This document shows positions 5,863-32,178 of a stretch of 64,000 bases of DNA, piece by piece. Source of the stretch: Escherichia coli (GTDB lineage: Bacteria; Pseudomonadota; Gammaproteobacteria; Enterobacterales; Enterobacteriaceae). Under the pieces are notes generated by a model. That model was not told the DNA's origin. It saw only the letters and a program-made list of their open reading frames with translations, and did not search any database. A program made the translations under genes and the position numbers. The stretch is taken from NCBI RefSeq assembly GCF_003991155.1, contig NZ_CP031293.1. One strand, written 5' to 3'. Every line of letters starts with the position of its first letter. Position 1 is the stretch's first letter.

Positions 5863-6654
5863 ATGAAATCCACTCGTCCTGTTGCCGTGATTACCGGAGC
5901 CGCTCGTGGTATTGGAAAGGGCTGTGCGCTGGAGCTTGCGCGTGGCGGATTTAATCTGCTGATTAATGATCGTCCGGATGCGGATAGCGTAGAAAAATTA
6001 CATGCCACACAACAAGAATGTCTGGCGGAAGGCGTGGAAGTGATTTGCTTCCCTGCTGATGTGGGCGATCTCTCCCTTCATGAAGAGATGCTCGACGCGG
6101 CGCAAAACCAGTGGGGACGTCTGGACTGTCTACTCAACAACGCAGGCATTTCAGTGAAAAAACGCGGTGACCTCCTCGACCTCGAACCAGACAGCTTCGA
6201 TCAAAACATTGCCATTAACACCCGCGCGCCGTTCTTCCTTGCTCAGGCATTCAGTAAGCGCTTACTGGCACAGCCGAAACCGGAAGCAGAACTGCCGCAC
6301 CGCTCGATTATTTTTGTCAGTTCCATCAACGCCATCATGCTGGCGATGAATCGCGGCGAATATACCATTGCCAAAACTGCCGTCTCCGCCGCAGCTCGTC
6401 TGTTTGCCGCTCGCCTTTGCAATGAACAAATTGGCGTTTATGAAGTGCGCCCTGGTCTCATCAAAACTGATATGACTATTCCGGCAACGGCTTATTACGA
6501 CGAACTGATTGCCAAAGGTCTGGTGCCGTGGGGACGTTGGGGTTATCCGGCTGATATTGCTTCCACTGTCCGCGCGATGGCGGAAGGTAAACTGATTTAC
6601 ACCTGCGGTCAGGCGGTTGCCATCGACGGCGGCTTAAGTATGCCGCGCTTCTGA
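5863..6654 (+). CDS. Short-chain dehydrogenase/reductase (SDR) family oxidoreductase
   Basis: 263-aa ORF with N-terminal TGAARGIGKG Rossmann motif and SDR-like catalytic region; first gene of the operon. Confidence 0.85.
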   Translation: MKSTRPVAVITGAARGIGKGCALELARGGFNLLINDRPDADSVEKLHATQQECLAEGVEVICFPADVGDLSLHEEMLDAAQNQWGRLDCLLNNAGISVKKRGDLLDLEPDSFDQNIAINTRAPFFLAQAFSKRLLAQPKPEAELPHRSIIFVSSINAIMLAMNRGEYTIAKTAVSAAARLFAARLCNEQIGVYEVRPGLIKTDMTIPATAYYDELIAKGLVPWGRWGYPADIASTVRAMAEGKLIYTCGQAVAIDGGLSMPRF

Positions 6655-6663
6655 GGCTGAATC

Positions 6664-7506
6664 ATGAGAGATCTGTTACAACGCCCGGATTTATTCAGTA
6701 TCAATACCGCAACACTGGGCTATAAAACGCCGCTACCCGCCATTATTGATGCCTGCGCCGCACGCGGTATTGGCGCAATTGCCCCCTGGCGCAGGGAGTT
6801 GCAGGGTGAAGATCTCCAGCAAATCGCCCGCCAGCTTGCTGCCAGTAACATAAACGTTTCCGGTTTGTGCCGTAGCACCTACTACACCGCACCGACGCTG
6901 GCGGAGCGCAAACTGGCGATTGACGATAACCGCCGGGCGCTGGACGACGCCGCTGTACTGAACGCTGCCTGTTATATGCAGGTGGTTGGCGGTCTGCCAA
7001 TGGGAACAAAAGATCTGTACGAAGCGCGGGAACAGGTGAAACAAGGGATTCGCCAGTTGCTGCCACATTCGAAAGATGTCGGTGTGCCAATTGCACTGGA
7101 GCCACTGCACCCGATGACTGCTGCCGATCGTTCTTGTCTGTGCACGTTACGTCAGGCGCTGGACTGGTGTGATGAACTCGATCCCGATGGCGAATTTGGC
7201 CTCGGCGTGGCGGTAGATGTCTACCATGTCTGGTGGGATCCGGATCTCGCCAGTCAGATCCTGCGTGCCGGAAAACGCATCCTCGCGTTTCATGTTTCCG
7301 ACTGGTTAGTGCCGACCACCGATCTGGTCAATGACCGTGGAATGCCGGGAGATGGTGTCATCAATATTCCGTCAATTCGTCGGCTGGTTGAAAACGCCGG
7401 ATTTAATGGCGCTATTGAACTGGAAATATTCTCACCGTATTGGTGGCAGCAAGATATTGACAGCACACTGGATATTAGCGTCGATCGCATCGCGCATTAT
7501 TGCTAA
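6664..7506 (+). CDS. Sugar-phosphate isomerase/epimerase-like TIM-barrel protein (xylose isomerase-like fold)
   Basis: 280-aa ORF; resembles the AP-endonuclease-2/xylose-isomerase-like TIM-barrel family (hydroxypyruvate isomerase, dehydroshikimate dehydratase, IolE-like). Family call from memory. Confidence 0.7.
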   Translation: MRDLLQRPDLFSINTATLGYKTPLPAIIDACAARGIGAIAPWRRELQGEDLQQIARQLAASNINVSGLCRSTYYTAPTLAERKLAIDDNRRALDDAAVLNAACYMQVVGGLPMGTKDLYEAREQVKQGIRQLLPHSKDVGVPIALEPLHPMTAADRSCLCTLRQALDWCDELDPDGEFGLGVAVDVYHVWWDPDLASQILRAGKRILAFHVSDWLVPTTDLVNDRGMPGDGVINIPSIRRLVENAGFNGAIELEIFSPYWWQQDIDSTLDISVDRIAHYC

Positions 7507-7515
7507 GGAATAATC

Positions 7516-8292
7516 ATGAGTGACCAACCCGTTCTGTTCAGCAGAGCGGCGGCTTCTTGCCGCCTGACATTGAACCGTGAAGATAAATGTCATGCTATTA
7601 ATGAAGAAATGATCGAATCTCTCGACCATTATTTAAATGAAATTGAAAATGACACGGCATTACGCTTAGTCGAATTAACGGCAACCGGCGATAAATTCTT
7701 TTGTGCGGGCGGCGATATTAAATCGTGGTCGGCCTATTCGCCATTAGATATGGGCAGAAAATGGATTAAACGCGGTAACGAGGTTTTTAATCGCCTGCGC
7801 AATTTACCCCAATTAACGGTTGCAAATCTCAACGGTCATACCATTGGCGGTGGGATTGAACTCGCCTTGTGCTGCGATATTCGTATTGCCCGCCCCGGCG
7901 CGAAATTCTCTAACCCGGAAGTGATGCTCGGCATGGTGCCTGGCTGGATGGGCATTGAACGCGTGCTTAATCAGGTTGGCCCGGTGGTCGGTCGCCAGAT
8001 GCTGATGCTGGGTAAACGCCTGACGGCGCAGGAAGCTCAGGCGGCGAATTTAATTGATGAAGTGGTAGAAAAAGAACAGGTGGAAAGCTGGATGGCGAAT
8101 CAGTTAGCGCAGCTGGAAAAATGCGGTCCGGTGGCGCTCGCACATATCAAGCAACTGATTCTGGCACTGGAAAATAAACATGCTGATTACCCGCACCAGT
8201 TACTGGCTGGATTAATGTCCGCCACTCAGGATTGCCAGCAGGCGACGCGCGCCTTTGCCGAAAAAAGTAGCGTGAGCTTCCAAAATCAATAA
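7516..8292 (+). CDS. Enoyl-CoA hydratase/isomerase (crotonase) family protein
   Basis: 258-aa ORF with crotonase-fold hallmarks (FCAGGDIK, GHTIGGGIELALCCDIRIA oxyanion-hole region). Confidence 0.85.
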   Translation: MSDQPVLFSRAAASCRLTLNREDKCHAINEEMIESLDHYLNEIENDTALRLVELTATGDKFFCAGGDIKSWSAYSPLDMGRKWIKRGNEVFNRLRNLPQLTVANLNGHTIGGGIELALCCDIRIARPGAKFSNPEVMLGMVPGWMGIERVLNQVGPVVGRQMLMLGKRLTAQEAQAANLIDEVVEKEQVESWMANQLAQLEKCGPVALAHIKQLILALENKHADYPHQLLAGLMSATQDCQQATRAFAEKSSVSFQNQ

Positions 8293-25553: not shown

Positions 25554-27179
25554 TTACAAACACACTCCTCCCGTCGCCCGCAGCAATAAATCATTCTGGA
25601 TCTGCTCTGACAACCGTACGCCGCCGCGCGTATCTAACATCACCTGACACCACGCCTGCGCCATTGGCGGAGAGGCATATTTCAACATTTGCGCACCACA
25701 GCCCAGCAGGAATAGCTGATGAGTAATCTCTCGCCCCAGTTCTTCAGCAGGCTTACGCAGCTGCTGCTGTAAACGACGAACCGCGCGATCAAAATAGCGA
25801 TCCTGTCCTTTCACTTCCACAAATGCTTCCGACAATAAGTCGTATACGCCCGCTTGCTTATTGAGCACGCGCAGCACATCCAGGCACATAATGTTGCCGG
25901 AACCTTCCCAGATACTATTTACCGGCATCTCCCGGTAAAGCCGCGGCAGCTCGCTCTCCTCGCAATAACCAATGCCGCCCAGCACCTCCATCGCTTCGGC
26001 CATAAACGGCATACCTCGTTTGCAGATCACAAATTTCGCCGCAGGCGTAAATAAACGCGCCCACAGGGCTTCTTTGGCATCAGCACGCCGGTCCCACGCT
26101 CGCGCAAGACGAAACAGCAACGCCGTTTGACCTTCAAGCTGAAGCGCCATGCGACTTAAGACATGACGCATAAGGGGCTGTTGGATCAATGGATTACCAA
26201 AAACATGGCGTTGATGTGCATGATAAATCGCCAGCGAAAATGCACGGCGCATCATGGCATGGCTACCCAGGGCGCAATCAAAACGCGTCATCCCTCCCAT
26301 TTTCAGGATCAGACGAGTTCCTTCCCCTTCCTGCCCTAACAACCAGCCAATGGCATCCTGAAACTCCACTTCGCAACTGGCGTTAGAGCGATTACCCAGC
26401 TTATCTTTCAGCCGCTCGAGGCGAATCGCGTTGCGTTGCCCGTCAGGCAAAAAGCGCGGCACAAAAAAGCAGGACAAACCGCCCGTAGTCTGCGCCAGCA
26501 CCAGATGCGCATCGCTTTGCGGCACCGAGAAAAACCATTTATGCCCCACCAGCCGATAAGAGCCATCTTCCAGGCGCTCTGCGCGGGTGGTGTTGCTCAT
26601 GACATCGGAACCGCCCTGCTTTTCCGTCATTCCCATGCCAATCAACAAACCGCGTTTTTGCCCACCTGGCAATAAGTGAGAATCGTAGCGATCGCTCAAC
26701 AGCGGCGTGGTCCAGTCCTGAAACGGCGCGGGTAACATCTGTAACAGCAATGGCGTGGCGGCAAAGGTCATGGTTATCGGACATAACGACCCAGCCTCAA
26801 CCTGCGCATGTAACATAAAACGCGCCGCGCGCGCCACAAATGCGCCGGAGCGAGCGTCTTCTTCCCAGGCAAGATTGTGCACCCGATTGGTACATAGCGC
26901 CTGCATCAGCAGGTGCCAGGCGGGGTGAAAACGCACATCGTCCAGACGGCGTCCTTGCGCATCGTAGCGCAATAATTCAGGCGGATTCACATTCGCCAGC
27001 CGCCCCAGTTCAAGGGATTCAGCCGTCCCTAACTGCTGACCAATACTGGCTAGAAAATCGCTATCCCAGCCAGCACCTTCACGCGTTACCGCTTCGCAGA
27101 GCGCGCCATCAGACAGGTATAAATTGCTGTTATTTAATGGTATAGGTTGATTAAAAACGGTGTGAGTTTGCCAGTGCAC
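25554..27179 (-). CDS. aidB: Adaptive-response protein AidB (acyl-CoA dehydrogenase family)
   Basis: ORF track 547 aa; conserved N-terminus begins at the GTG codon of V-HWQTHTVFNQPIPLNNSNLY (541 aa). Confidence 0.9.
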   Translation of the reverse strand: MHWQTHTVFNQPIPLNNSNLYLSDGALCEAVTREGAGWDSDFLASIGQQLGTAESLELGRLANVNPPELLRYDAQGRRLDDVRFHPAWHLLMQALCTNRVHNLAWEEDARSGAFVARAARFMLHAQVEAGSLCPITMTFAATPLLLQMLPAPFQDWTTPLLSDRYDSHLLPGGQKRGLLIGMGMTEKQGGSDVMSNTTRAERLEDGSYRLVGHKWFFSVPQSDAHLVLAQTTGGLSCFFVPRFLPDGQRNAIRLERLKDKLGNRSNASCEVEFQDAIGWLLGQEGEGTRLILKMGGMTRFDCALGSHAMMRRAFSLAIYHAHQRHVFGNPLIQQPLMRHVLSRMALQLEGQTALLFRLARAWDRRADAKEALWARLFTPAAKFVICKRGMPFMAEAMEVLGGIGYCEESELPRLYREMPVNSIWEGSGNIMCLDVLRVLNKQAGVYDLLSEAFVEVKGQDRYFDRAVRRLQQQLRKPAEELGREITHQLFLLGCGAQMLKYASPPMAQAWCQVMLDTRGGVRLSEQIQNDLLLRATGGVCL

Positions 27180-27262
27180 TGTGTCTCCCTCCATCAATGG
27201 CAGTCACCATTAGTATGGTCACTGCCATGGATTCATGACAGAAAGAGATTGCTAAAACATTC

Positions 27263-28426
27263 TTATCCAGCAATGTAATGCGGAACGAAACGTGAGGTGT
27301 CTTTGGTGATCAGCGTGTTATCTTCACGGATCCCCATTCCGCACGCTTCATCATCGACAATCCAGCTACCGATGAGTGTGTAGCTATCGCCAAATCGCGG
27401 CAGAGGTTGAAACGCCTGGTAGATCATCGGTTCATCGGCGTAATCACCATCAGCGTGGTCAACGACGTTATTCTGACCGTCGAAAATGGTGACGTTGCCG
27501 CCTTCGCGCGAGTAGATCGGTTTACGCACATAGCTTTCGCCAGCGGCAATCTGCGATTTTTCACCCTCAAACCAGGATGCAAGAAGGTTAGGATGACCAG
27601 GGAAGAAGCGCCAAAGCAGCGGCATTAGCCCTTTATTACTCAAGATACTTTTCCATAACGGCTCCACCCATTGCTCGCGACGCTTGCGCAGCAGCGGACC
27701 GTTATCGTCACGCATCATCCACTCCAGCGGATACAGCTTAAATGCACGCTGGATGACATTATCATCAAGATCGGTCAGTACGCCGCCGACGCCCAAACCG
27801 AGATCTTCAATGTAGATAAACCGCGACTCCTGCCCTGCCTGCTGGGCGCAGTCCTGCAAGTACAGCACGGTACTCCTGTCTTCATCGGTGTCCTGACAGC
27901 AGCAAAAATAAAACGGTTCCCGACTGTAAAGCTCACTAAAGCGCGAAATCAGGCGTTCCTGAATGGCATTGTACTGATCGGCATCACGCGGAACAATGCC
28001 GCTGCGCCGGGCATCTTCCAGCCACAGCCACTGGAAATAAGCCGACTCGTACAATGAAGTTGGCGTATCGGCGTTGTACTCCAGCAGCTTCACCGGCGCA
28101 TTACCACACCAGGCAAAATCCATCCGGCCATACAACGAAGGATCGCGTGCGCGCCAGCTTTCGGCGATCACATCCCAGTACAACGGCGGGATCGCCAGTT
28201 GCGTCAGGATCTCTTCATCTTTAACCGCGCGATCCACCACCTCAAGGCACATCTGATGCAGTTCCGCAGTCGGTTTTTCGATCTGCTCTTCAATCTGGCG
28301 CAGAGTAAAACGGTAAGCCCGACTCTCGTCCCAATAGATTTCATTGTCGATGATATGAAAGTCAAATCCGTTATCGGCGGCAATCCGGTCCAGATCCCGC
28401 CGCACAGGAACATTGTGTCTCAGCAT
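27263..28426 (-). CDS. yjfC: Glutathionylspermidine synthase-like ATP-grasp protein YjfC
   Basis: ORF 392 aa; start set at MLRHNVPVRRDLDRIAADNGFDFH (387 aa). Confidence 0.85.
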   Translation of the reverse strand: MLRHNVPVRRDLDRIAADNGFDFHIIDNEIYWDESRAYRFTLRQIEEQIEKPTAELHQMCLEVVDRAVKDEEILTQLAIPPLYWDVIAESWRARDPSLYGRMDFAWCGNAPVKLLEYNADTPTSLYESAYFQWLWLEDARRSGIVPRDADQYNAIQERLISRFSELYSREPFYFCCCQDTDEDRSTVLYLQDCAQQAGQESRFIYIEDLGLGVGGVLTDLDDNVIQRAFKLYPLEWMMRDDNGPLLRKRREQWVEPLWKSILSNKGLMPLLWRFFPGHPNLLASWFEGEKSQIAAGESYVRKPIYSREGGNVTIFDGQNNVVDHADGDYADEPMIYQAFQPLPRFGDSYTLIGSWIVDDEACGMGIREDNTLITKDTSRFVPHYIAG

Positions 28427-28428
28427 GA

Positions 28429-29067
28429 TTAGCCTCCCCAATGCCCACGGGCGCTGGAAGAACGACCATAGCCGCCGCGAGAAACGGTTGACGCTTTTTT
28501 GGTGGTAAAGCCGCCCGAAGAGTAAGACTCTTTTTTGCCAGAACCGGAGCGCCAGGAGTAATCACCGGAAGTGTTGCGCCAGACGGGGCGGGAAGCAAAT
28601 GAGGATCCGCCGCTGTTATAGACGAACGGCTCATCGCGATCTTTACGAATAACCCGGCTTAACAAAAATCCAGAAACGACCGGGATCCAACTCTGTTCAA
28701 CATTGTCGTAGTAACAATTTTCATACTTAGACTGACAATTCTGCTGAGTCATATTCTTCGGAACATCGGCATAAAACGCCGCTTTGGCGTTGTTCCAGCC
28801 ATGAGCACAGATATCTGAATTATTACCGTCATCAATACAATCCTGCACAGTCGAGTAAAACGTTCCGTCGCCGTCGTTATCGACATCGCCACTATCGCCA
28901 CAACCTTTCAATACGAAAAAAGCGGCACCGCCCATTAGCGCCAACGTTAAGTATTTTTGTGCGTAGCGATTGCGACGCGGTTCAAAAGGATTATTCGGTC
29001 TGCCAATGCGACTGATCGCTCCGTGACCAATTTTACTGTTATTTCTTGATTTGCGTTTTCTGGCCAT
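28429..29067 (-). CDS. yjfM: DUF1190-family protein YjfM with Gly/Ser-rich C-terminal tail
   Basis: 212-aa ORF; N-terminal hydrophobic segment, Cys-containing central region, low-complexity G/S/R-rich C-terminus. Confidence 0.8.
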   Translation of the reverse strand: MARKRKSRNNSKIGHGAISRIGRPNNPFEPRRNRYAQKYLTLALMGGAAFFVLKGCGDSGDVDNDGDGTFYSTVQDCIDDGNNSDICAHGWNNAKAAFYADVPKNMTQQNCQSKYENCYYDNVEQSWIPVVSGFLLSRVIRKDRDEPFVYNSGGSSFASRPVWRNTSGDYSWRSGSGKKESYSSGGFTTKKASTVSRGGYGRSSSARGHWGG

Positions 29068-29076
29068 GATCGTCCA

Positions 29077-29475
29077 TTACCATGTCATACAAGCTGCGTT
29101 AAAAATACCACCAGCCAGTGCGGCGGTTCCCATAAACATTCCTGCTGCGGTATTGTGATTAATAATTTTTTCGCTTAATGCGGGCATATAAAGTCTGACG
29201 CCAGCAAAAACGAGTAACTGAATCACCAGTGCAATCCCGCCCCAGGCGAAATAATCCGGAATACTCACCGCATTGATTGCCGCACTGGATAAGGGGATCA
29301 CGTAACCCAACAATGTACCGCTGAATGCCAGTGACGCCGCGGTATTATTGTTTTTGATTAATTGCCATTCGTTGTGCGGTGTAATTTTGGAGTAGATAAA
29401 CAGAAAAATAATCACCATAGCCACGCCAATAAAAAAATAGGCGCTAAAGGCAAGAAGTGAATCCAGTATATGCAT
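29077..29475 (-). CDS. yjfL: DUF350-family inner membrane protein YjfL
   Basis: ORF 159 aa; start set at MHILDSLLAFSAYFFIGVAMVIIF (132 aa), 4 predicted TM segments. Confidence 0.75.
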   Translation of the reverse strand: MHILDSLLAFSAYFFIGVAMVIIFLFIYSKITPHNEWQLIKNNNTAASLAFSGTLLGYVIPLSSAAINAVSIPDYFAWGGIALVIQLLVFAGVRLYMPALSEKIINHNTAAGMFMGTAALAGGIFNAACMTW

Positions 29476-29492
29476 CGTAAACGTCCTTGTAA

Positions 29493-30152
29493 TTAACCAA
29501 TAATATGAAGTGATGTCAGCGGGATATCGACACCCAGCGCGCGCGAAAATAACCACTCTGGCTCGCCGAGATCGTTAAAAGATTCCTCACCATTTAGCAG
29601 CAAATATTCGTAAGTATCTTCGGTTACTTGCCGTTGGTAGCCCATGGTAAAATTATGCACTTCCCATTTGGCATGGTTTTGATTTTCTACTTTTTCCAGC
29701 ATGTAGACGGGTTCGATATTTCCCGGTTCTTCGCTGTTAAAAAATCGCTGCCAGCGTTTTTCCTGCCAGTTTAAGGTCATTGCCCCCATCGCTTTGGCAT
29801 TGATCGTCTCGCGCCAGTGACTCTCTTTACTGATACCGTAGCTCTCTTCATAGACAAAGAGCTTGATATCATCAATGTCATCAATATTTTCGCCGCCGGT
29901 GGTATTGATTTGCAGAAACTCATCGCCTGAAGTGTAGTAGCGGAAAATCTGGCTACCGCCGCCCAGATCGATGCGGCTGACGGCGGCTACCGTAAATTCC
30001 TCACCCGGCAGCGCAATCAGCAATTCATCTTCCAGCAAACGAAACGCTAACGTGTCGAGCGTAAAGCCACTATTGAGATGAAGTCCCAGCGGACCACGAG
30101 CGATAGCAGGCTTATTATCCTTGCCAAACAGACGCTGGAAAAAACCAGACAT
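29493..30152 (-). CDS. yjfK: DUF2491-family protein YjfK
   Basis: 219-aa ORF; synteny yjfI-yjfJ-yjfK-yjfL-yjfM-yjfC. Confidence 0.8.
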   Translation of the reverse strand: MSGFFQRLFGKDNKPAIARGPLGLHLNSGFTLDTLAFRLLEDELLIALPGEEFTVAAVSRIDLGGGSQIFRYYTSGDEFLQINTTGGENIDDIDDIKLFVYEESYGISKESHWRETINAKAMGAMTLNWQEKRWQRFFNSEEPGNIEPVYMLEKVENQNHAKWEVHNFTMGYQRQVTEDTYEYLLLNGEESFNDLGEPEWLFSRALGVDIPLTSLHIIG

Positions 30153-30201
30153 ATTTTATCCTTATAATAGTTGCCAGCCTTGCAGTGAGGCTGGCAAAAA
30201 A

Positions 30202-30900
30202 TTACTCGCCCTGTTGGCGTTGCAGTCTTGCTAATACATCCTGGGCGCTACTTTTATTGCTACCGCCAATTCCGGCTTCCGCCAGCTTTTCATCGAGATC
30301 GCGACCGTCTGCGACTTTTTCCAACTGTGCGGCAGCATCCAGGCGAGCCTGACGTTCGGCCTGACGCGTTTGCAGGCGTTTTAAGGATTCTGCCGCTGTC
30401 GAAACGCTGGAAGATGCGCCAACGGTAGAGGTCGTTACAGCCTGTTGTGCACGCTGCATGGCTTCAGTGGCTTTAACGACTTCCATTTGCTGCTCAAACT
30501 GAGCGATACGCTGCGCTGTCGCTGTAACTGCTTTTTCCACGCCATCACGAGAGACTTCCAGATTCGACAACACTTGCTCTTCAGCGGTAATGAGATTCTC
30601 AAGGCGCGCGATTTCTTCAGCAACTTCGTTAATCAACGACGGATTCACGTTCTTGCTTAACGCTTCCAGCGCACGAGCTTCCAGACTGGCTTTGCGCTCA
30701 CGTAAATCTTTCAGCTTATCGTGACTTAATTTCACTCGCGCCAGCAGATCAACGCGAGATTTTCCGGCTTTATCGAGTTCAGCTTTAGCGTCACGAATAT
30801 GCTGTTCCAGCATGCGCACGCCCTGGGTTTCTTCAATGGACTCTTCCGCCTGGGAGATAAACGATTTCCCCAGCGTAAATAAACTTTTTAAAATCCCCAT
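30202..30900 (-). CDS. yjfJ: PspA/IM30-family protein YjfJ
   Basis: 232-aa ORF, coiled-coil-rich sequence (MGILKSLFTLGKSFISQAEESIEETQGVRMLEQHIRDAKAEL) typical of PspA/Vipp1. Confidence 0.85.
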   Translation of the reverse strand: MGILKSLFTLGKSFISQAEESIEETQGVRMLEQHIRDAKAELDKAGKSRVDLLARVKLSHDKLKDLRERKASLEARALEALSKNVNPSLINEVAEEIARLENLITAEEQVLSNLEVSRDGVEKAVTATAQRIAQFEQQMEVVKATEAMQRAQQAVTTSTVGASSSVSTAAESLKRLQTRQAERQARLDAAAQLEKVADGRDLDEKLAEAGIGGSNKSSAQDVLARLQRQQGE

Positions 30901-30918
30901 AAATACCCGTCCTTGTAA

Positions 30919-31320
30919 TTAGTGTGAATATTCTTCTGTAATTTCAGCCAGATCCAATGCGTTATCTACCAGCGAGGTTATCTCAAGCAGAATATCTTCA
31001 AGAGAAGATTTAAGCGATAACGCACCGAAAACAATGTAATACTCTTCCTGTTGCACGCTGGAGATCCCTACCGATGACAACGGCATCATCTTCTGATTTC
31101 TTAATAAGAAGGTATTAAATTCATCTGGATTGCTGATACTACTTACCGGACAAATAAAGGTTTCGATAATCATTTGGCGGGAAGTAAATAGAATATTGAT
31201 TTGCAAATCGCCATAATCATTCATTTTAATAATTAATGCGTTCTCGCTATTTGTTACATCAATATTTTGTTCAGGTACAGTTTGCAGCGCCGTCGCCAGC
31301 GCCAACGGATTCCATGTCAT
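30919..31320 (-). CDS. yjfI: DUF2170-family protein YjfI
   Basis: 133-aa ORF; first gene of the yjfIJKLMC cluster, AT-rich upstream region. Confidence 0.8.
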   Translation of the reverse strand: MTWNPLALATALQTVPEQNIDVTNSENALIIKMNDYGDLQINILFTSRQMIIETFICPVSSISNPDEFNTFLLRNQKMMPLSSVGISSVQQEEYYIVFGALSLKSSLEDILLEITSLVDNALDLAEITEEYSH

Positions 31321-31400
31321 ATATTATTCCATATAAATTAAGTTTAAATATTAATAAAATGAATATTTGCAGTACGTAATTATCTTACCAGCTATAGACA

Positions 31401-31426
31401 AAAAAAAACCATCCAAATCTGGATGG
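31401..31426 (-). terminator. Rho-independent terminator downstream of rlmB
   Basis: On the minus strand: hairpin ccatccagatttggatgg followed by a T8 run (plus-strand a8 at 31401..31408). Confidence 0.55.
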
Positions 31427-31446
31427 CTTTTCATAATTCCGAGAAA

Positions 31447-32178
31447 TTAGCTACGCTGGCGTACCGCTTCAAATAAGCAAATGCCTGTCGCCACAGAAAC
31501 GTTCAGCGAAGAAACACTTCCTGCCATGGGGATGCTGATCAACTCATCGCAATGTTCACGGGTCAGGCGACGCATGCCTTCACCTTCTGCGCCCATCACC
31601 AGTGCCAGCCGTCCGGTCATTTTGCTCTGATAGAGTGTATGATCCGCCTCGCCTGCCGTACCGACGATCCAGATATTCTCTTCCTGCAACATACGCATGG
31701 TGCGCGCCAGATTAGTCACCCGAATCAGCGGAACGCTTTCTGCCGCACCACAGGCCACTTTTTTCGCCGTGGCGTTGAGCTGTGCGGAGCGATCTTTCGG
31801 CACAATCACCGCATGAACACCAGCGGCGTCCGCGCTACGCAGGCACGCGCCGAGGTTGTGCGGATCGGTTACGCCGTCGAGGATCAGCAGGAACGGTTGA
31901 TCGAGCGAAGCGATCAGATCCGGCAGATCGTTTTCCTGATACTGCCGTCCTGGCTTCACACGAGCGATAATGCCCTGATGCACGGCACCGTCGCTTTTCT
32001 CGTCGAGATATTGGCGGTTTGCCAGCTGGATAACCACGCCCTGGGACTCAAGGGCGTGAATCAGCGGCAACAGACGTTTATCTTCACGGCCTTTTAAAAT
32101 AAAGACTTCCTGAAAACGTTCAGGGGCGCGCTCCAGCAGGGCCTGCACTGCGTGGATGCCGTAAATCATTTCGCTCAT
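31447..32178 (-). CDS. rlmB: 23S rRNA (guanosine2251-2'-O)-methyltransferase RlmB
   Basis: 243-aa SpoU-family methyltransferase sequence; downstream of rnr. Confidence 0.92.

What the first reader, a model, noticed from the sequence alone, without database searches (positions are those of the whole stretch)
27263..31320. Conserved but uncharacterised yjfI-yjfJ-yjfK-yjfL-yjfM-yjfC cluster: a PspA-like membrane stress system with an ATP-grasp enzyme
Six co-directional, closely spaced genes form one operon-like block with its own terminators. It encodes a PspA/IM30-family coiled-coil protein (YjfJ), three DUF proteins including a DUF350 membrane protein (YjfL), a protein with a Cys-rich centre and Gly/Ser-rich tail (YjfM), and a glutathionylspermidine-synthase-like ATP-grasp ligase (YjfC) joined to yjfM by a 4-bp overlap. 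To my knowledge the cluster has no established function, even though it is core genome. Pairing a PspA paralog with an amide-bond-forming ligase suggests a modification-coupled envelope stress response.
Basis: partly seen in the sequence, partly recalled or inferred. Interest (0 to 1): 0.45.

Follow-up and report, generated by a model that had tools for sequence, protein, structure and literature searches.

The report
PspA-like cluster with polyamine ligase
This is the E. coli yjfIJKLMC gene cluster, a real, conserved and partly described envelope-stress cassette whose ligase (YjfC) most likely attaches a polyamine to the invariant Gly-Gly end of the lipoprotein encoded next to it (YjfM), an idea one mass-spectrometry experiment could test.

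Summary
The six genes are at the stated coordinates on the minus strand: yjfI (DUF2170), yjfJ (PspA/IM30), yjfK (DUF2491), yjfL (DUF350), yjfM (DUF1190) and yjfC (ATP-grasp). They occur in 5425 of 5426 complete E. coli genomes. Two details are wrong. yjfM and yjfC are separated by 2 nt, not overlapped by 4 bp. The only canonical terminator belongs to upstream rlmB.

The cluster is not unstudied. YjfC has crystal structures and in-vitro peptide-spermidine ligase activity. The operon type was described bioinformatically in 2024. yjfIJKL is a heat-tolerance iModulon, and loss of yjfMC together with ygiBC worsens a tolC defect.

New here: the ligase sits beside a lipoprotein gene in 16 of 18 non-enterobacterial contexts spanning three phyla. 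That lipoprotein has an acid-free Ser/Gly/Arg tail with an SRGGFG motif. The tail ends in Gly-Gly in 111 of 129 diverse representatives, independently of the downstream ribosome-binding site.

Best reading: YjfC amidates YjfM's terminal glycine with spermidine before export, alongside a YjfI-YjfJ membrane-repair pair. This is inferred, not shown. The tail's expected periplasmic location and a failed AlphaFold docking test count against it.

The parts
31400..31432 (-). Intrinsic terminator of upstream rlmB (13-pair hairpin plus a 9-T tract at 31408..31400). It marks the 5' boundary of the cluster.
   Evidence: dG -18.1 kcal/mol, z -4.2. In K-12, position -80 from the yjfI ATG is the last T of this tract.
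30919..31320 (-). yjfI: 133-aa DUF2170 protein with a CesT/Tir-like chaperone fold and no signal peptide. Presumed cytosolic partner of YjfJ.
   Evidence: Pfam PF09938, E 1.5e-44. Matches the BacA crystal structure 8Q8O at E 1e-16. CesT/Tir assignment from PMC11237479 and PMC10948618.
30202..30900 (-). yjfJ: 232-aa PspA/IM30 (ESCRT-III-like) coiled-coil protein, a very divergent family member.
   Evidence: Pfam PF04012, E 5e-58, full length. No PDB sequence hit.
30171..30197 (-). Hairpin (10-bp stem, no U-tract) in the 49-nt yjfJ-yjfK spacer. The spacer occupies the place of a ~357-aa K+ channel gene found in relatives.
   Evidence: dG -18.1 kcal/mol, z -4.0; the channel gene is kept in 19 of 5426 E. 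coli genomes and in Citrobacter, Serratia, Buttiauxella, Atlantibacter, Enterobacter and Rhizobium.
29493..30152 (-). yjfK: 219-aa DUF2491 all-beta protein with no signal peptide. Function unknown.
29077..29475 (-). yjfL: 132-aa DUF350 inner-membrane protein with four hydrophobic segments.
   Evidence: Pfam PF03994, E 1e-33. K-12 annotation. Sits immediately upstream of the DUF1190 gene in the L-M-C triads.
28429..29067 (-). yjfM: 212-aa DUF1190 protein. It has a basic N-terminus, a hydrophobic anchor with an atypical lipobox (LKGC), a four-Cys domain, a short hydrophobic motif and a Gly/Ser/Arg tail.
   Evidence: Pfam PF06693. Alignment A1. Family analysis.
28432..28482 (-). The part of yjfM that encodes the conserved tail SRGGYGRSSSARGHWGG. 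The invariant C-terminal Gly-Gly is encoded at 28437..28432. This is the proposed acyl donor for YjfC. The same bases carry the yjfC Shine-Dalgarno sequence.
   Evidence: 111 of 129 end in GG; 36 of 39 loci, all Gly codons, independent of ligase position.
27263..28426 (-). yjfC: 387-aa stand-alone ATP-grasp ligase of the glutathionylspermidine-synthetase family. It has no amidase domain.
   Evidence: Pfam PF03738, E 3e-149. PDB 7UK6, E 1e-272. 51% identical to YgiC. RefSeq product 'peptide--spermidine ligase YjfC'.
27197..27228 (-). Imperfect 14-bp hairpin without a U-tract between yjfC and aidB. It is not a canonical terminator and lies in the aidB upstream region.

Best explanation
The window carries the channel-less E. 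coli version of a conserved, horizontally mobile six- to seven-gene envelope cassette built from two modules.

Module 1 (yjfI-yjfJ). YjfJ is an ESCRT-III/PspA-type protein that polymerises on the cytoplasmic face of a damaged inner membrane. YjfI is its cytosolic CesT-like chaperone.

Module 2 ([K+ channel]-yjfK-yjfL-yjfM-yjfC). YjfC is an ATP-grasp carboxylate-amine ligase. I propose that its natural acyl donor is the alpha-carboxylate of the invariant C-terminal Gly-Gly of YjfM, whose gene is translationally coupled to yjfC.

Proposed steps:
1. YjfC phosphorylates the terminal Gly carboxylate, as glutathionylspermidine synthetase does with the Gly of glutathione.
2. It then amidates it with spermidine. 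This happens on the unfolded pre-protein in the cytoplasm, before Sec export.
3. The exported lipoprotein, or membrane-anchored protein, therefore carries an acid-free, basic Gly/Ser tail capped by a polyamine in the periplasm.
4. YjfL (a DUF350 four-helix membrane protein) and YjfK (a cytosolic all-beta protein) are accessory. Their roles are unknown.
5. ygiB-ygiC is a paralogous two-gene copy of the same reaction.

The cassette is almost silent in the laboratory. When yjfIJKL is switched on it improves growth at 42-45 C.

What is shown: family memberships, synteny, tail conservation, in-vitro ligase chemistry (literature) and the phenotypes (literature).

What is inferred: the YjfI-YjfJ partnership, YjfM as the substrate, the timing before export, and any coupling between the two modules.
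For: 1.

2. YjfC and YgiC are in-vitro peptide-spermidine ligases that do not use glutathione (PMC11762307; PMC12506659; RefSeq product names). The physiological substrate is stated to be unknown.

3. E. coli has two such ligases, and each lies directly after a DUF1190 gene. YjfC/YgiC are 51% identical. YjfM/YgiB are 23% identical at E 4e-12.

4. In 16 of 18 ligase-anchored contexts outside the enterics there is an adjacent lipoprotein gene with an [RK]GGF motif near its end. These contexts cover alpha-, beta- and gamma-proteobacteria, Deinococcus and Arthrobacter. They include five cases where annotation, my HMM or both do not call the neighbour DUF1190 (four of them checked against Pfam); in all five the tail still ends in GG.

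5. An exhaustive profile search found 1171 DUF1190 clusters. Of the 129 full-length representatives among the 150 best hits, 111 end in Gly-Gly, and WGG, FGG or MGG account for 90.

6. The terminal GG uses all four Gly codons. It persists when the ligase start is 76-142 nt away or the gene order is reversed, so it is not a by-product of the Shine-Dalgarno sequence.

7. The last 20 residues hold 0.09 acidic and 2.8 basic residues on average. The alpha-carboxylate is thus essentially the only carboxylate in the tail.

8. Gaps of -1 to 6 nt between the lipoprotein gene and the ligase gene in most loci indicate translational coupling.

9. Synteny of the whole cassette is shown. In channel-bearing strains the genes overlap (TAATG, ATGA), which fits one operon.

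11. From established knowledge: RimK (ribosomal protein S6) and tubulin-tyrosine ligase are ATP-grasp enzymes that act on protein C-terminal carboxylates. HMW1 adhesin is modified in the cytoplasm before Sec export.
Against: 1. Topology. 106 of 130 family members have a classic lipobox and 96 of 130 have four Cys in the mature part. The internal hydrophobic motif is too weak to be a membrane helix: the median 19-residue Kyte-Doolittle score is 0.79 and only 2 of 130 reach 1.6. The tail should therefore end up in the periplasm, where an ATP-dependent enzyme cannot work. The model needs modification before export, for which there is no evidence here.

2. An AlphaFold2 model of YjfC fused through a (G4S)6 linker to the YjfM tail, with 18 paired sequences, left the tail at pLDDT 24-36. 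There was no confident docking.

3. Two ligases have no such neighbour: Photobacterium (49% identical) and Azospirillum brasilense (26%). Three partner proteins end in GS, WGS or CCG.

4. The iModulon contains yjfIJKL but not yjfMC. In Rhizobium the I-J pair is divergently transcribed. The modules also occur separately. Functional coupling of the two modules is unproven.

5. I could not read Pederick et al. 2023, so I do not know which peptides were accepted in vitro.
Confidence: 0.4

Rival explanations
1. YjfC makes a soluble small peptide- or metabolite-polyamine conjugate. YjfL (DUF350) moves it, or polyamines, across the inner membrane, and YjfM (DUF1190) binds or senses it in the periplasm. 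On this view the conserved Gly-Gly tail of YjfM serves some other purpose, such as protein-protein docking.
For: The in-vitro activity is described only as 'peptide-spermidine ligase', with the physiological substrate unknown. Topology places the YjfM tail outside the cytoplasm. A DUF350 membrane protein accompanies the pair in many loci. Ravi et al. read DUF1190 as a metal-chelating lipoprotein and link the operon to polyamine monitoring. AlphaFold did not dock the tail.
Against: It does not explain why the very last two residues are Gly-Gly across phyla while the rest of the protein drifts beyond Pfam recognition. It does not explain the near absence of side-chain carboxylates in the tail, or why the pair is so often translationally coupled.
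Confidence: 0.25
2. Two functionally independent modules sit side by side. yjfIJ(KL) is a PspA-type membrane-maintenance unit. yjfMC is a separate polyamine-conjugation unit. They are neighbours because both serve the envelope, not because one modifies or controls the other.
For: ygiBC exists alone next to tolC. L-M-C triads and C-M pairs occur without PspA. The DUF2170-PspA pair occurs with other partners in P. aeruginosa and in other operon classes. The iModulon is yjfIJKL only. The Rhizobium arrangement is divergent.
Against: The same six genes in the same order recur in distant gamma-proteobacteria and travel together on plasmids. In channel-bearing strains the reading frames overlap from yjfJ through yjfK. 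YjfK (DUF2491) was found only inside full clusters in every locus I sampled.
Confidence: 0.2
3. In E. coli the cassette is a largely cryptic, decaying remnant. It is silent under laboratory conditions, has lost its K+ channel gene, and contributes little to fitness.
For: The iModulon is inactive in all PRECISE-1K samples except the evolved strains. The channel gene is missing in all but 19 of 5426 genomes. One Salmonella diarizonae locus has an internal deletion and one Enterobacter record is full of frameshifts. YjfM is only 69% identical between E. coli and Salmonella.
Against: All six frames are intact here and the block is kept in 5425 of 5426 genomes. The conserved motifs are maintained. 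Forced expression is beneficial at 42 C. yjfMC contributes to a tolC phenotype.
Confidence: 0.1

Closest known systems
CesT/Tir-PspA dyad with an ATP-grasp polyamine operon ('third group' of Ravi et al. 2024, mSystems, PMC11237479)
   Same: It has the same gene set: DUF2170/CesT-like, a yjfJ-type PspA, DUF2491, a four-helix DUF350 protein, a DUF1190 lipoprotein and a glutathionylspermidine-synthetase-like ATP-grasp ligase.
   Different: The window lacks the K+ channel listed for that class, which is kept in only 19 of 5426 E. coli genomes. In the passages I read, that paper names no substrate for the ligase and does not mention the conserved Gly-Gly terminus.
E. coli ygiB-ygiC (downstream of tolC)
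   Same: It is a paralogous DUF1190 plus ligase pair. YgiC is 51% identical to YjfC. YgiB shares the four Cys, the hydrophobic motif, the TRGGFG motif and the terminal GG. Both ligases are annotated peptide--spermidine ligase. The two pairs are genetically redundant in the tolC background.
   Different: It has no PspA, DUF2170, DUF2491 or DUF350 partners. YgiB has a canonical lipobox (LAGC), whereas YjfM has LKGC after a long basic N-terminus. ygiB is Cpx-induced in C. rodentium.
Glutathionylspermidine synthetase/amidase (GspSA) and trypanothione synthetase
   Same: They share the ATP-grasp synthetase domain, which ligates a C-terminal glycine carboxylate to a spermidine amine (PF03738; PDB hits 2IO7 and 2VOB).
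   Different: YjfC lacks the N-terminal CHAP amidase domain. It is 387 aa against 619 aa and aligns only to residues ~253-613. It does not make glutathionylspermidine (Sui 2012, as cited).
Canonical Psp system (pspF / pspABCDE)
   Same: YjfJ belongs to the same PspA/IM30 (ESCRT-III-like) family by profile.
   Different: There is no pairwise similarity to PspA. No PspB, PspC or PspF genes are nearby. No sigma-54 promoter match lies upstream of yjfI within three mismatches. The partner is a CesT-like protein instead.
P. aeruginosa bac cluster (BacA/PA3732 - BacB/PA3731)
   Same: It has the same DUF2170 plus PspA dyad. The BacA crystal structure 8Q8O matches YjfI at E 1e-16.
   Different: The bac cluster has no ligase, DUF1190 or DUF2491. 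It is reported with a sigma-54 site and a biofilm phenotype. YjfI scores 93.7 bits against the BacA model, far below its 300-bit equivalog cut-off.
RimK / ribosomal protein S6 and tubulin-tyrosine ligase (ATP-grasp enzymes acting on protein C-termini; from general knowledge)
   Same: An ATP-grasp enzyme activates the alpha-carboxylate of a specific protein's C-terminus. This is the chemistry proposed here.
   Different: Those enzymes add amino acids, not a polyamine. Their substrates are cytosolic. Enzyme and substrate genes are not adjacent.

Membership tests
PspA/IM30 (ESCRT-III-like) family | Full-length match to the family profile above the curated threshold | tested here: met
   PF04012, E 5.3e-58, 196.7 bits against a cut-off of 33.9, residues 2-232
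Canonical Psp stress system | Sigma-54 promoter with a PspF activator, and PspB/PspC membrane partners | tested here: not met
   No TGGCACG-N4-TTGCW match within three mismatches between rlmB and yjfI. The neighbours are DUF2170, DUF2491 and DUF350.
Canonical Psp stress system | Recognisable pairwise similarity to E. coli PspA | tested here: not met
No PDB sequence hit at 1e-3.
Glutathionylspermidine synthetase/amidase (GspSA) | ATP-grasp synthetase domain | tested here: met
   PF03738, E 3.3e-149, residues 15-385
Glutathionylspermidine synthetase/amidase (GspSA) | N-terminal CHAP amidase domain (bifunctional enzyme) | tested here: not met
   387 aa. The NCBIfam GspSA model scores 164.8 bits against a cut-off of 882. 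Only model positions 487-613 and PDB residues 253-444 align.
Glutathionylspermidine synthetase/amidase (GspSA) | Uses glutathione as the acyl donor | not testable with these tools
   The literature cited reports that YgiC (tested alongside YjfC in Sui 2012) lacks this activity.
Peptide-spermidine ligase YjfC/YgiC | Sequence identity with the crystallised, assayed protein | tested here: met
   7UK6 chain A, E 1e-272 over residues 1-387. YgiC 7UK8, E 6e-129.
CesT/Tir-PspA + ATP-grasp operon class (Ravi 2024, group 3) | DUF2170-PspA dyad together with the ligase, DUF350, DUF1190 and DUF2491 | tested here: met
   The same order is seen in distant taxa.
CesT/Tir-PspA + ATP-grasp operon class (Ravi 2024, group 3) | K+ channel with a cytoplasmic ligand-sensing domain | tested here: not met
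   A 49-nt spacer replaces it in the window. The channel (Ion_trans_2, plus TrkA_N in the Rhizobium copy) is present in relatives and in 19 of 5426 E. coli genomes.
DUF2170 / BacA (CesT-like chaperone) | Family profile match and similarity to the solved BacA structure | tested here: met
   PF09938, E 1.5e-44. 8Q8O, E 1.1e-16.
DUF2170 / BacA (CesT-like chaperone) | Equivalog of P. aeruginosa BacA | tested here: not met
   NF050185 scores 93.7 bits against a cut-off of 300.
Bacterial lipoproteins (for YjfM) | Lipobox [LVI][ASTVI][GAS]C at the end of a signal peptide | tested here: inconclusive
   YjfM has L-K-G-C after a ~40-residue basic N-terminus, and two orthologues lack the Cys. 106 of 130 family representatives and YgiB have a lipobox by a permissive pattern. 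Cleavage and acylation were not tested.
ATP-grasp modification of a protein C-terminus (RimK/S6 type) | Conserved free C-terminal residue on a dedicated substrate protein | tested here: met
   111 of 129 representatives and 36 of 39 loci end in GG. This holds independently of the downstream Shine-Dalgarno sequence.
ATP-grasp modification of a protein C-terminus (RimK/S6 type) | Enzyme-dependent covalent adduct on that terminus | not testable with these tools
   This needs mass spectrometry. The AlphaFold2 fusion test gave no docking signal.

The most novel reading that the evidence does not exclude
DUF1190 lipoproteins (YjfM, YgiB and more than a thousand relatives across several phyla) are dedicated, ribosomally made substrates of the neighbouring ATP-grasp ligase. 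Their invariant C-terminal Gly-Gly would be amidated with spermidine. That would be a new protein modification, C-terminal polyamination of an exported envelope protein. It would identify the long-sought physiological substrate of YjfC and YgiC. It would also explain why a polyamine ligase travels with a PspA-type membrane-repair pair and, next to tolC, with an outer-membrane channel.
Probability: 0.35. Interest if true: 0.75.

Novelty: already known. Interest (0 to 1): 0.5.

Why it matters
E. coli's two orphan peptide-spermidine ligases have structures and in-vitro chemistry but no known physiological substrate. Its second PspA-family protein has no known role.

The conserved acid-free tail ending in Gly-Gly on the adjacent lipoprotein turns that open question into one experiment: compare the mass of the YjfM and YgiB C-terminal peptides with and without the ligase.

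If the prediction holds, it defines a widespread new post-translational modification. It would also link polyamines mechanistically to envelope stress, heat tolerance and TolC biology. If it fails, the cluster remains an ordinary, already catalogued 'conserved unknown'.

Tried and rejected
1. Second membrane helix in YjfM. I tested whether this could put the tail in the cytoplasm. Rejected: the conserved [FW]xPxMxGF(M/L)L motif has a median 19-residue hydropathy of 0.79, and only 2 of 130 proteins reach 1.6.

2. Terminal GG as a by-product of the GGAGG ribosome-binding site of yjfC. Rejected: all four Gly codons are used, and GG persists with 76-142 nt gaps or reversed gene order.

3. AlphaFold2 docking. 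I fused YjfC through a (G4S)6 linker to the last 25 residues of YjfM and supplied 18 paired sequences. The ligase was modelled well (pLDDT above 90) but the tail stayed at 24-36. This gives no support and is not decisive.

5. Sigma-54 promoter upstream of yjfI, as in psp and bac. No match found.

6. Anti-phage defence models (PADLOC). Only a coiled-coil noise hit.

7. Rfam scan of 26900-31600. Nothing found.

8. Word-indexed homology searches with YjfM and YjfK returned only Enterobacterales sequences. The genome scan anchored on YjfK returned 27 loci, only enterics plus Endozoicomonas-like genomes. Diversity had to come from the exhaustive profile search and from plasmid and chromid records.

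9. Context look-ups for three metagenomic DUF1190 representatives gave only 1.3-2 kb contigs.

10. Pederick 2023, Sui 2012 and Dhamdhere 2010 are not held in the library. Their content is taken only from citing papers.

Full report
**1. Observation**

The window is Escherichia coli. On the minus strand between 31320 and 27263 lie six ORFs:
- yjfI 31320..30919
- yjfJ 30900..30202
- yjfK 30152..29493
- yjfL 29475..29077
- yjfM 29067..28429
- yjfC 28426..27263

The gaps between them are 18, 49, 17, 9 and 2 nt. Each protein matches one Pfam family over its whole length: DUF2170, PspA_IM30, DUF2491, DUF350, DUF1190 and GSP_synth. The 4.5-kb block is 100% identical to several E. coli chromosomes and is found in 5425 of 5426 complete genomes. 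K-12 RefSeq annotates the same six genes between rlmB and aidB.

Two details of the finding are wrong. The yjfM/yjfC junction reads TGG GGA GGC TAA tc ATG. That is a 2-nt gap, not a 4-bp overlap, and the ribosome-binding site lies inside the last yjfM codons. The cluster also has no terminators of its own:
- The strong hairpin plus U9 at 31432..31400 ends the upstream rlmB gene.
- The hairpins in the yjfJ-yjfK spacer and after yjfC lack U-tracts.

No Rfam family, no sigma-54-like promoter upstream of yjfI and no defence-system model matches.

**2. What is already known**

- Ravi et al. 2024 (PMC11237479) describe this operon class: a CesT/Tir-like protein plus a yjfJ-type PspA, joined to a glutathionylspermidine-synthetase-like ATP-grasp ligase, a K+ channel, DUF350, a DUF1190 lipoprotein and DUF2491. 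They propose a link between PspA-based membrane dynamics and polyamines.
- YjfC and its paralogue YgiC have crystal structures (7UK6-7UKA).
- According to papers citing Pederick et al. 2023, both enzymes are peptide-spermidine ligases in vitro. YgiC, tested alongside YjfC in Sui 2012, does not make glutathionylspermidine. The physiological substrate is stated to be unknown. RefSeq already uses that product name.
- yjfIJKL forms the 'YjfJ iModulon'. It is silent in about a thousand transcriptomes and strongly on in strains evolved to grow at 45 C (PMC12492005).
- Plasmid activation of this iModulon gave more than 1.21-fold faster growth at 42 C (PMC11472167).
- Loss of ygiBC and yjfMC aggravates the growth defect of tolC mutants (Dhamdhere 2010, as cited and in part).
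- The P. aeruginosa homologue of YjfI, BacA, has a CesT-like crystal structure and sits next to a PspA homologue.

It does not hold for YjfC's chemistry, the gene-neighbourhood idea or the phenotypes.

**3. Comparative anatomy**

A genome scan anchored on YjfK returned 27 loci. Wherever the contig is long enough, the order I-J-K-L-M-C is kept. This includes Endozoicomonas at 34-37% YjfK identity.

A tblastn search with YjfC against plasmids and chromids found 147 records. I inspected 18 from different genera:
- Full cassette: Vibrio vulnificus, Pseudomonas psychrotolerans, P. amygdali and Halomonas. The Halomonas ligase is broken by frameshifts.
- Full cassette with a divergently transcribed I-J pair: Rhizobium johnstonii pRL12.
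- DUF350-lipoprotein-ligase triads: Azospirillum B510, Methylobacterium, Methylorubrum, Asticcacaulis and Deinococcus.
- Ligase plus lipoprotein only: Sulfitobacter and Paracoccus, both with the ligase gene first, and Acinetobacter baumannii. E. coli ygiBC has the same two-gene layout.
- Ligase plus a lipoprotein not annotated as DUF1190: Arthrobacter, Acinetobacter sp. and Paraburkholderia.
- Orphan ligases: Photobacterium and Azospirillum brasilense.

The minimal conserved unit is therefore the lipoprotein plus the ligase. The PspA pair and YjfK are a frequent but separable addition.

Many enterics and Rhizobium carry a ~357-aa K+ channel gene between yjfJ and yjfK, with overlapping start and stop codons. 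The Pfam domains are Ion_trans_2, plus TrkA_N in the Rhizobium copy. Only 19 of 5426 E. coli genomes keep this gene. In the window an unrelated 43-nt stretch containing a hairpin stands in its place.

**4. The new lead**

An alignment of YjfM orthologues with the paralogue YgiB shows few invariant positions:
- four Cys;
- Pro and Gly in a short hydrophobic motif;
- Thr-x-x-Arg-Gly-Gly (in YjfM: TVSRGGYG);
- the last two residues, Gly-Gly.

An exhaustive profile search found 1171 clusters at 50% identity. Of the 129 full-length representatives among the best 150:
- 111 end in GG (WGG 63, FGG 19, MGG 8);
- 10 end in GS.

The stretch after the SRGGFG motif is 35% Ser, 23% Gly, 10% Ala and 8% Arg. 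The last 20 residues carry on average 0.09 acidic and 2.8 basic residues. The alpha-carboxylate is therefore practically the only carboxylate in the tail.

In five of the distant contexts (Deinococcus, Arthrobacter, Acinetobacter sp., Paraburkholderia, Methylorubrum) annotation, my HMM or both do not call the ligase's neighbour DUF1190; Pfam also fails to recognise the four I scanned (Methylorubrum was not scanned). All five are still lipoprotein-like, carry an ...RGGF... or ...RGGL... motif and end in ...GG.

Across 39 loci, 36 end in GG. All four Gly codons are used. GG persists when the ligase start is 76-142 nt away or when the gene order is reversed. The conservation is therefore at the protein level and is not a side effect of the ligase's Shine-Dalgarno sequence.

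The enzyme family activates the glycine carboxylate of glutathione and joins it to spermidine. The simplest reading is that the terminal glycine of the neighbouring lipoprotein is the natural acyl donor.

**5. Problems with that reading**

- 106 of 130 family members have a lipobox and 96 of 130 have four Cys in the mature part. The internal hydrophobic motif is too weak for a membrane helix. After export the tail should be periplasmic, out of reach of an ATP-dependent cytosolic enzyme.
- The model therefore requires modification of the unfolded pre-protein before Sec export. Translational coupling (gaps of -1 to 6 nt in most loci) would favour this, but nothing here shows it.
- An AlphaFold2 model of YjfC fused by a flexible linker to the YjfM tail, with 18 paired sequences, folded the ligase confidently but left the tail at pLDDT 24-36.
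- Two ligases lack the partner, and three partner proteins do not end in GG.
- I could not read the primary enzymology paper.

**6. Other parts**

- YjfJ is a PspA/IM30 member only at profile level.
- YjfI matches the BacA structure.
- Neither YjfI nor YjfK has a signal peptide. The published guesses of a periplasmic lipoprotein and an outer-membrane porin therefore look unlikely.

**7. Verdict**

The cluster is a known, bioinformatically described, mechanistically unsolved cassette, so it is not new in kind.

What raises its interest is a specific, cheap and decisive test. The test follows from three results: the ligase and lipoprotein genes are adjacent across three phyla, the tail is acid-free, and it ends in an invariant Gly-Gly. 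I put about 0.35-0.4 on C-terminal polyamination of YjfM by YjfC.

The main alternatives are:
- a soluble polyamine conjugate;
- two independent neighbouring modules;
- a largely cryptic locus in E. coli.

Noticed in passing
window 30153-30201 (yjfJ-yjfK spacer); L005 3067-4140: A ~357-aa K+ channel gene lies between yjfJ and yjfK in many enterics and in Rhizobium. It has a GSTLGFGD filter and Pfam Ion_trans_2, plus TrkA_N in the Rhizobium copy. Only 19 of 5426 complete E. coli genomes keep it. In the window an unrelated 43-nt stretch with a stable hairpin replaces it.
   Followed up: yes
window 31400-31408; L002 6046-6054: The single-base deletion '80 bp upstream of yjfI' is reported to switch on yjfIJKL in heat-evolved strains and is called a promoter mutation. 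Counted from the ATG, it falls on the last T of the 9-T tract of the rlmB terminator. Read-through from rnr-rlmB is an alternative explanation.
   Followed up: partly
window 30901-30921 and 29476-29495: The junctions before yjfJ and before yjfL share the same 14-mer, TAATTACAAGGACG. It spans the stop codon and the ribosome-binding site.
   Followed up: no
window 27197-27228: A 14-bp inverted repeat with one mismatch lies between yjfC and aidB and has no U-tract. It sits in the aidB upstream region and may be a protein-binding site rather than a terminator.
   Followed up: no
L034 (Vibrio vulnificus pVV20-8B-2), L035, L050 (Pseudomonas plasmids), L033 (Rhizobium pRL12): The whole six- or seven-gene cassette is carried on large plasmids. 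In the Vibrio and P. amygdali plasmids it lies beside DNA methyltransferase genes, and in Vibrio also recombinase genes. It is horizontally mobile, not only 'core genome'.
   Followed up: partly
L024 (Salmonella enterica subsp. diarizonae) 6387-7544; L019 (Enterobacter sp. EA-1): One Salmonella locus keeps only fragments (yjfI, part of yjfK, part of yjfC), which points to an internal deletion. One Enterobacter record has frameshifts throughout the cluster, either from decay or from poor assembly.
   Followed up: no
L038 6271-6774 (Arthrobacter caoxuetaonis plasmid): The lipoprotein next to the ligase ends in ...SVSRGGFGSGAKGGSVGG. The record annotates it as 'tRNA-dihydrouridine synthase', which is probably a mis-annotation.
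   Followed up: no
L045 6432-7658 (Photobacterium sp. GJ3): This YjfC-like ligase is 49% identical but has no DUF1190-like neighbour. It is flanked by a methionine aminopeptidase-like gene and a pentapeptide-repeat-like gene. It is the clearest exception to the pairing rule.
   Followed up: partly
window 29493-30152 and 30919-31320: A published structural annotation calls YjfK an outer-membrane porin and YjfI a periplasmic lipoprotein. Neither sequence has a signal peptide, and YjfI matches the BacA/CesT-like chaperone fold.
   Followed up: partly
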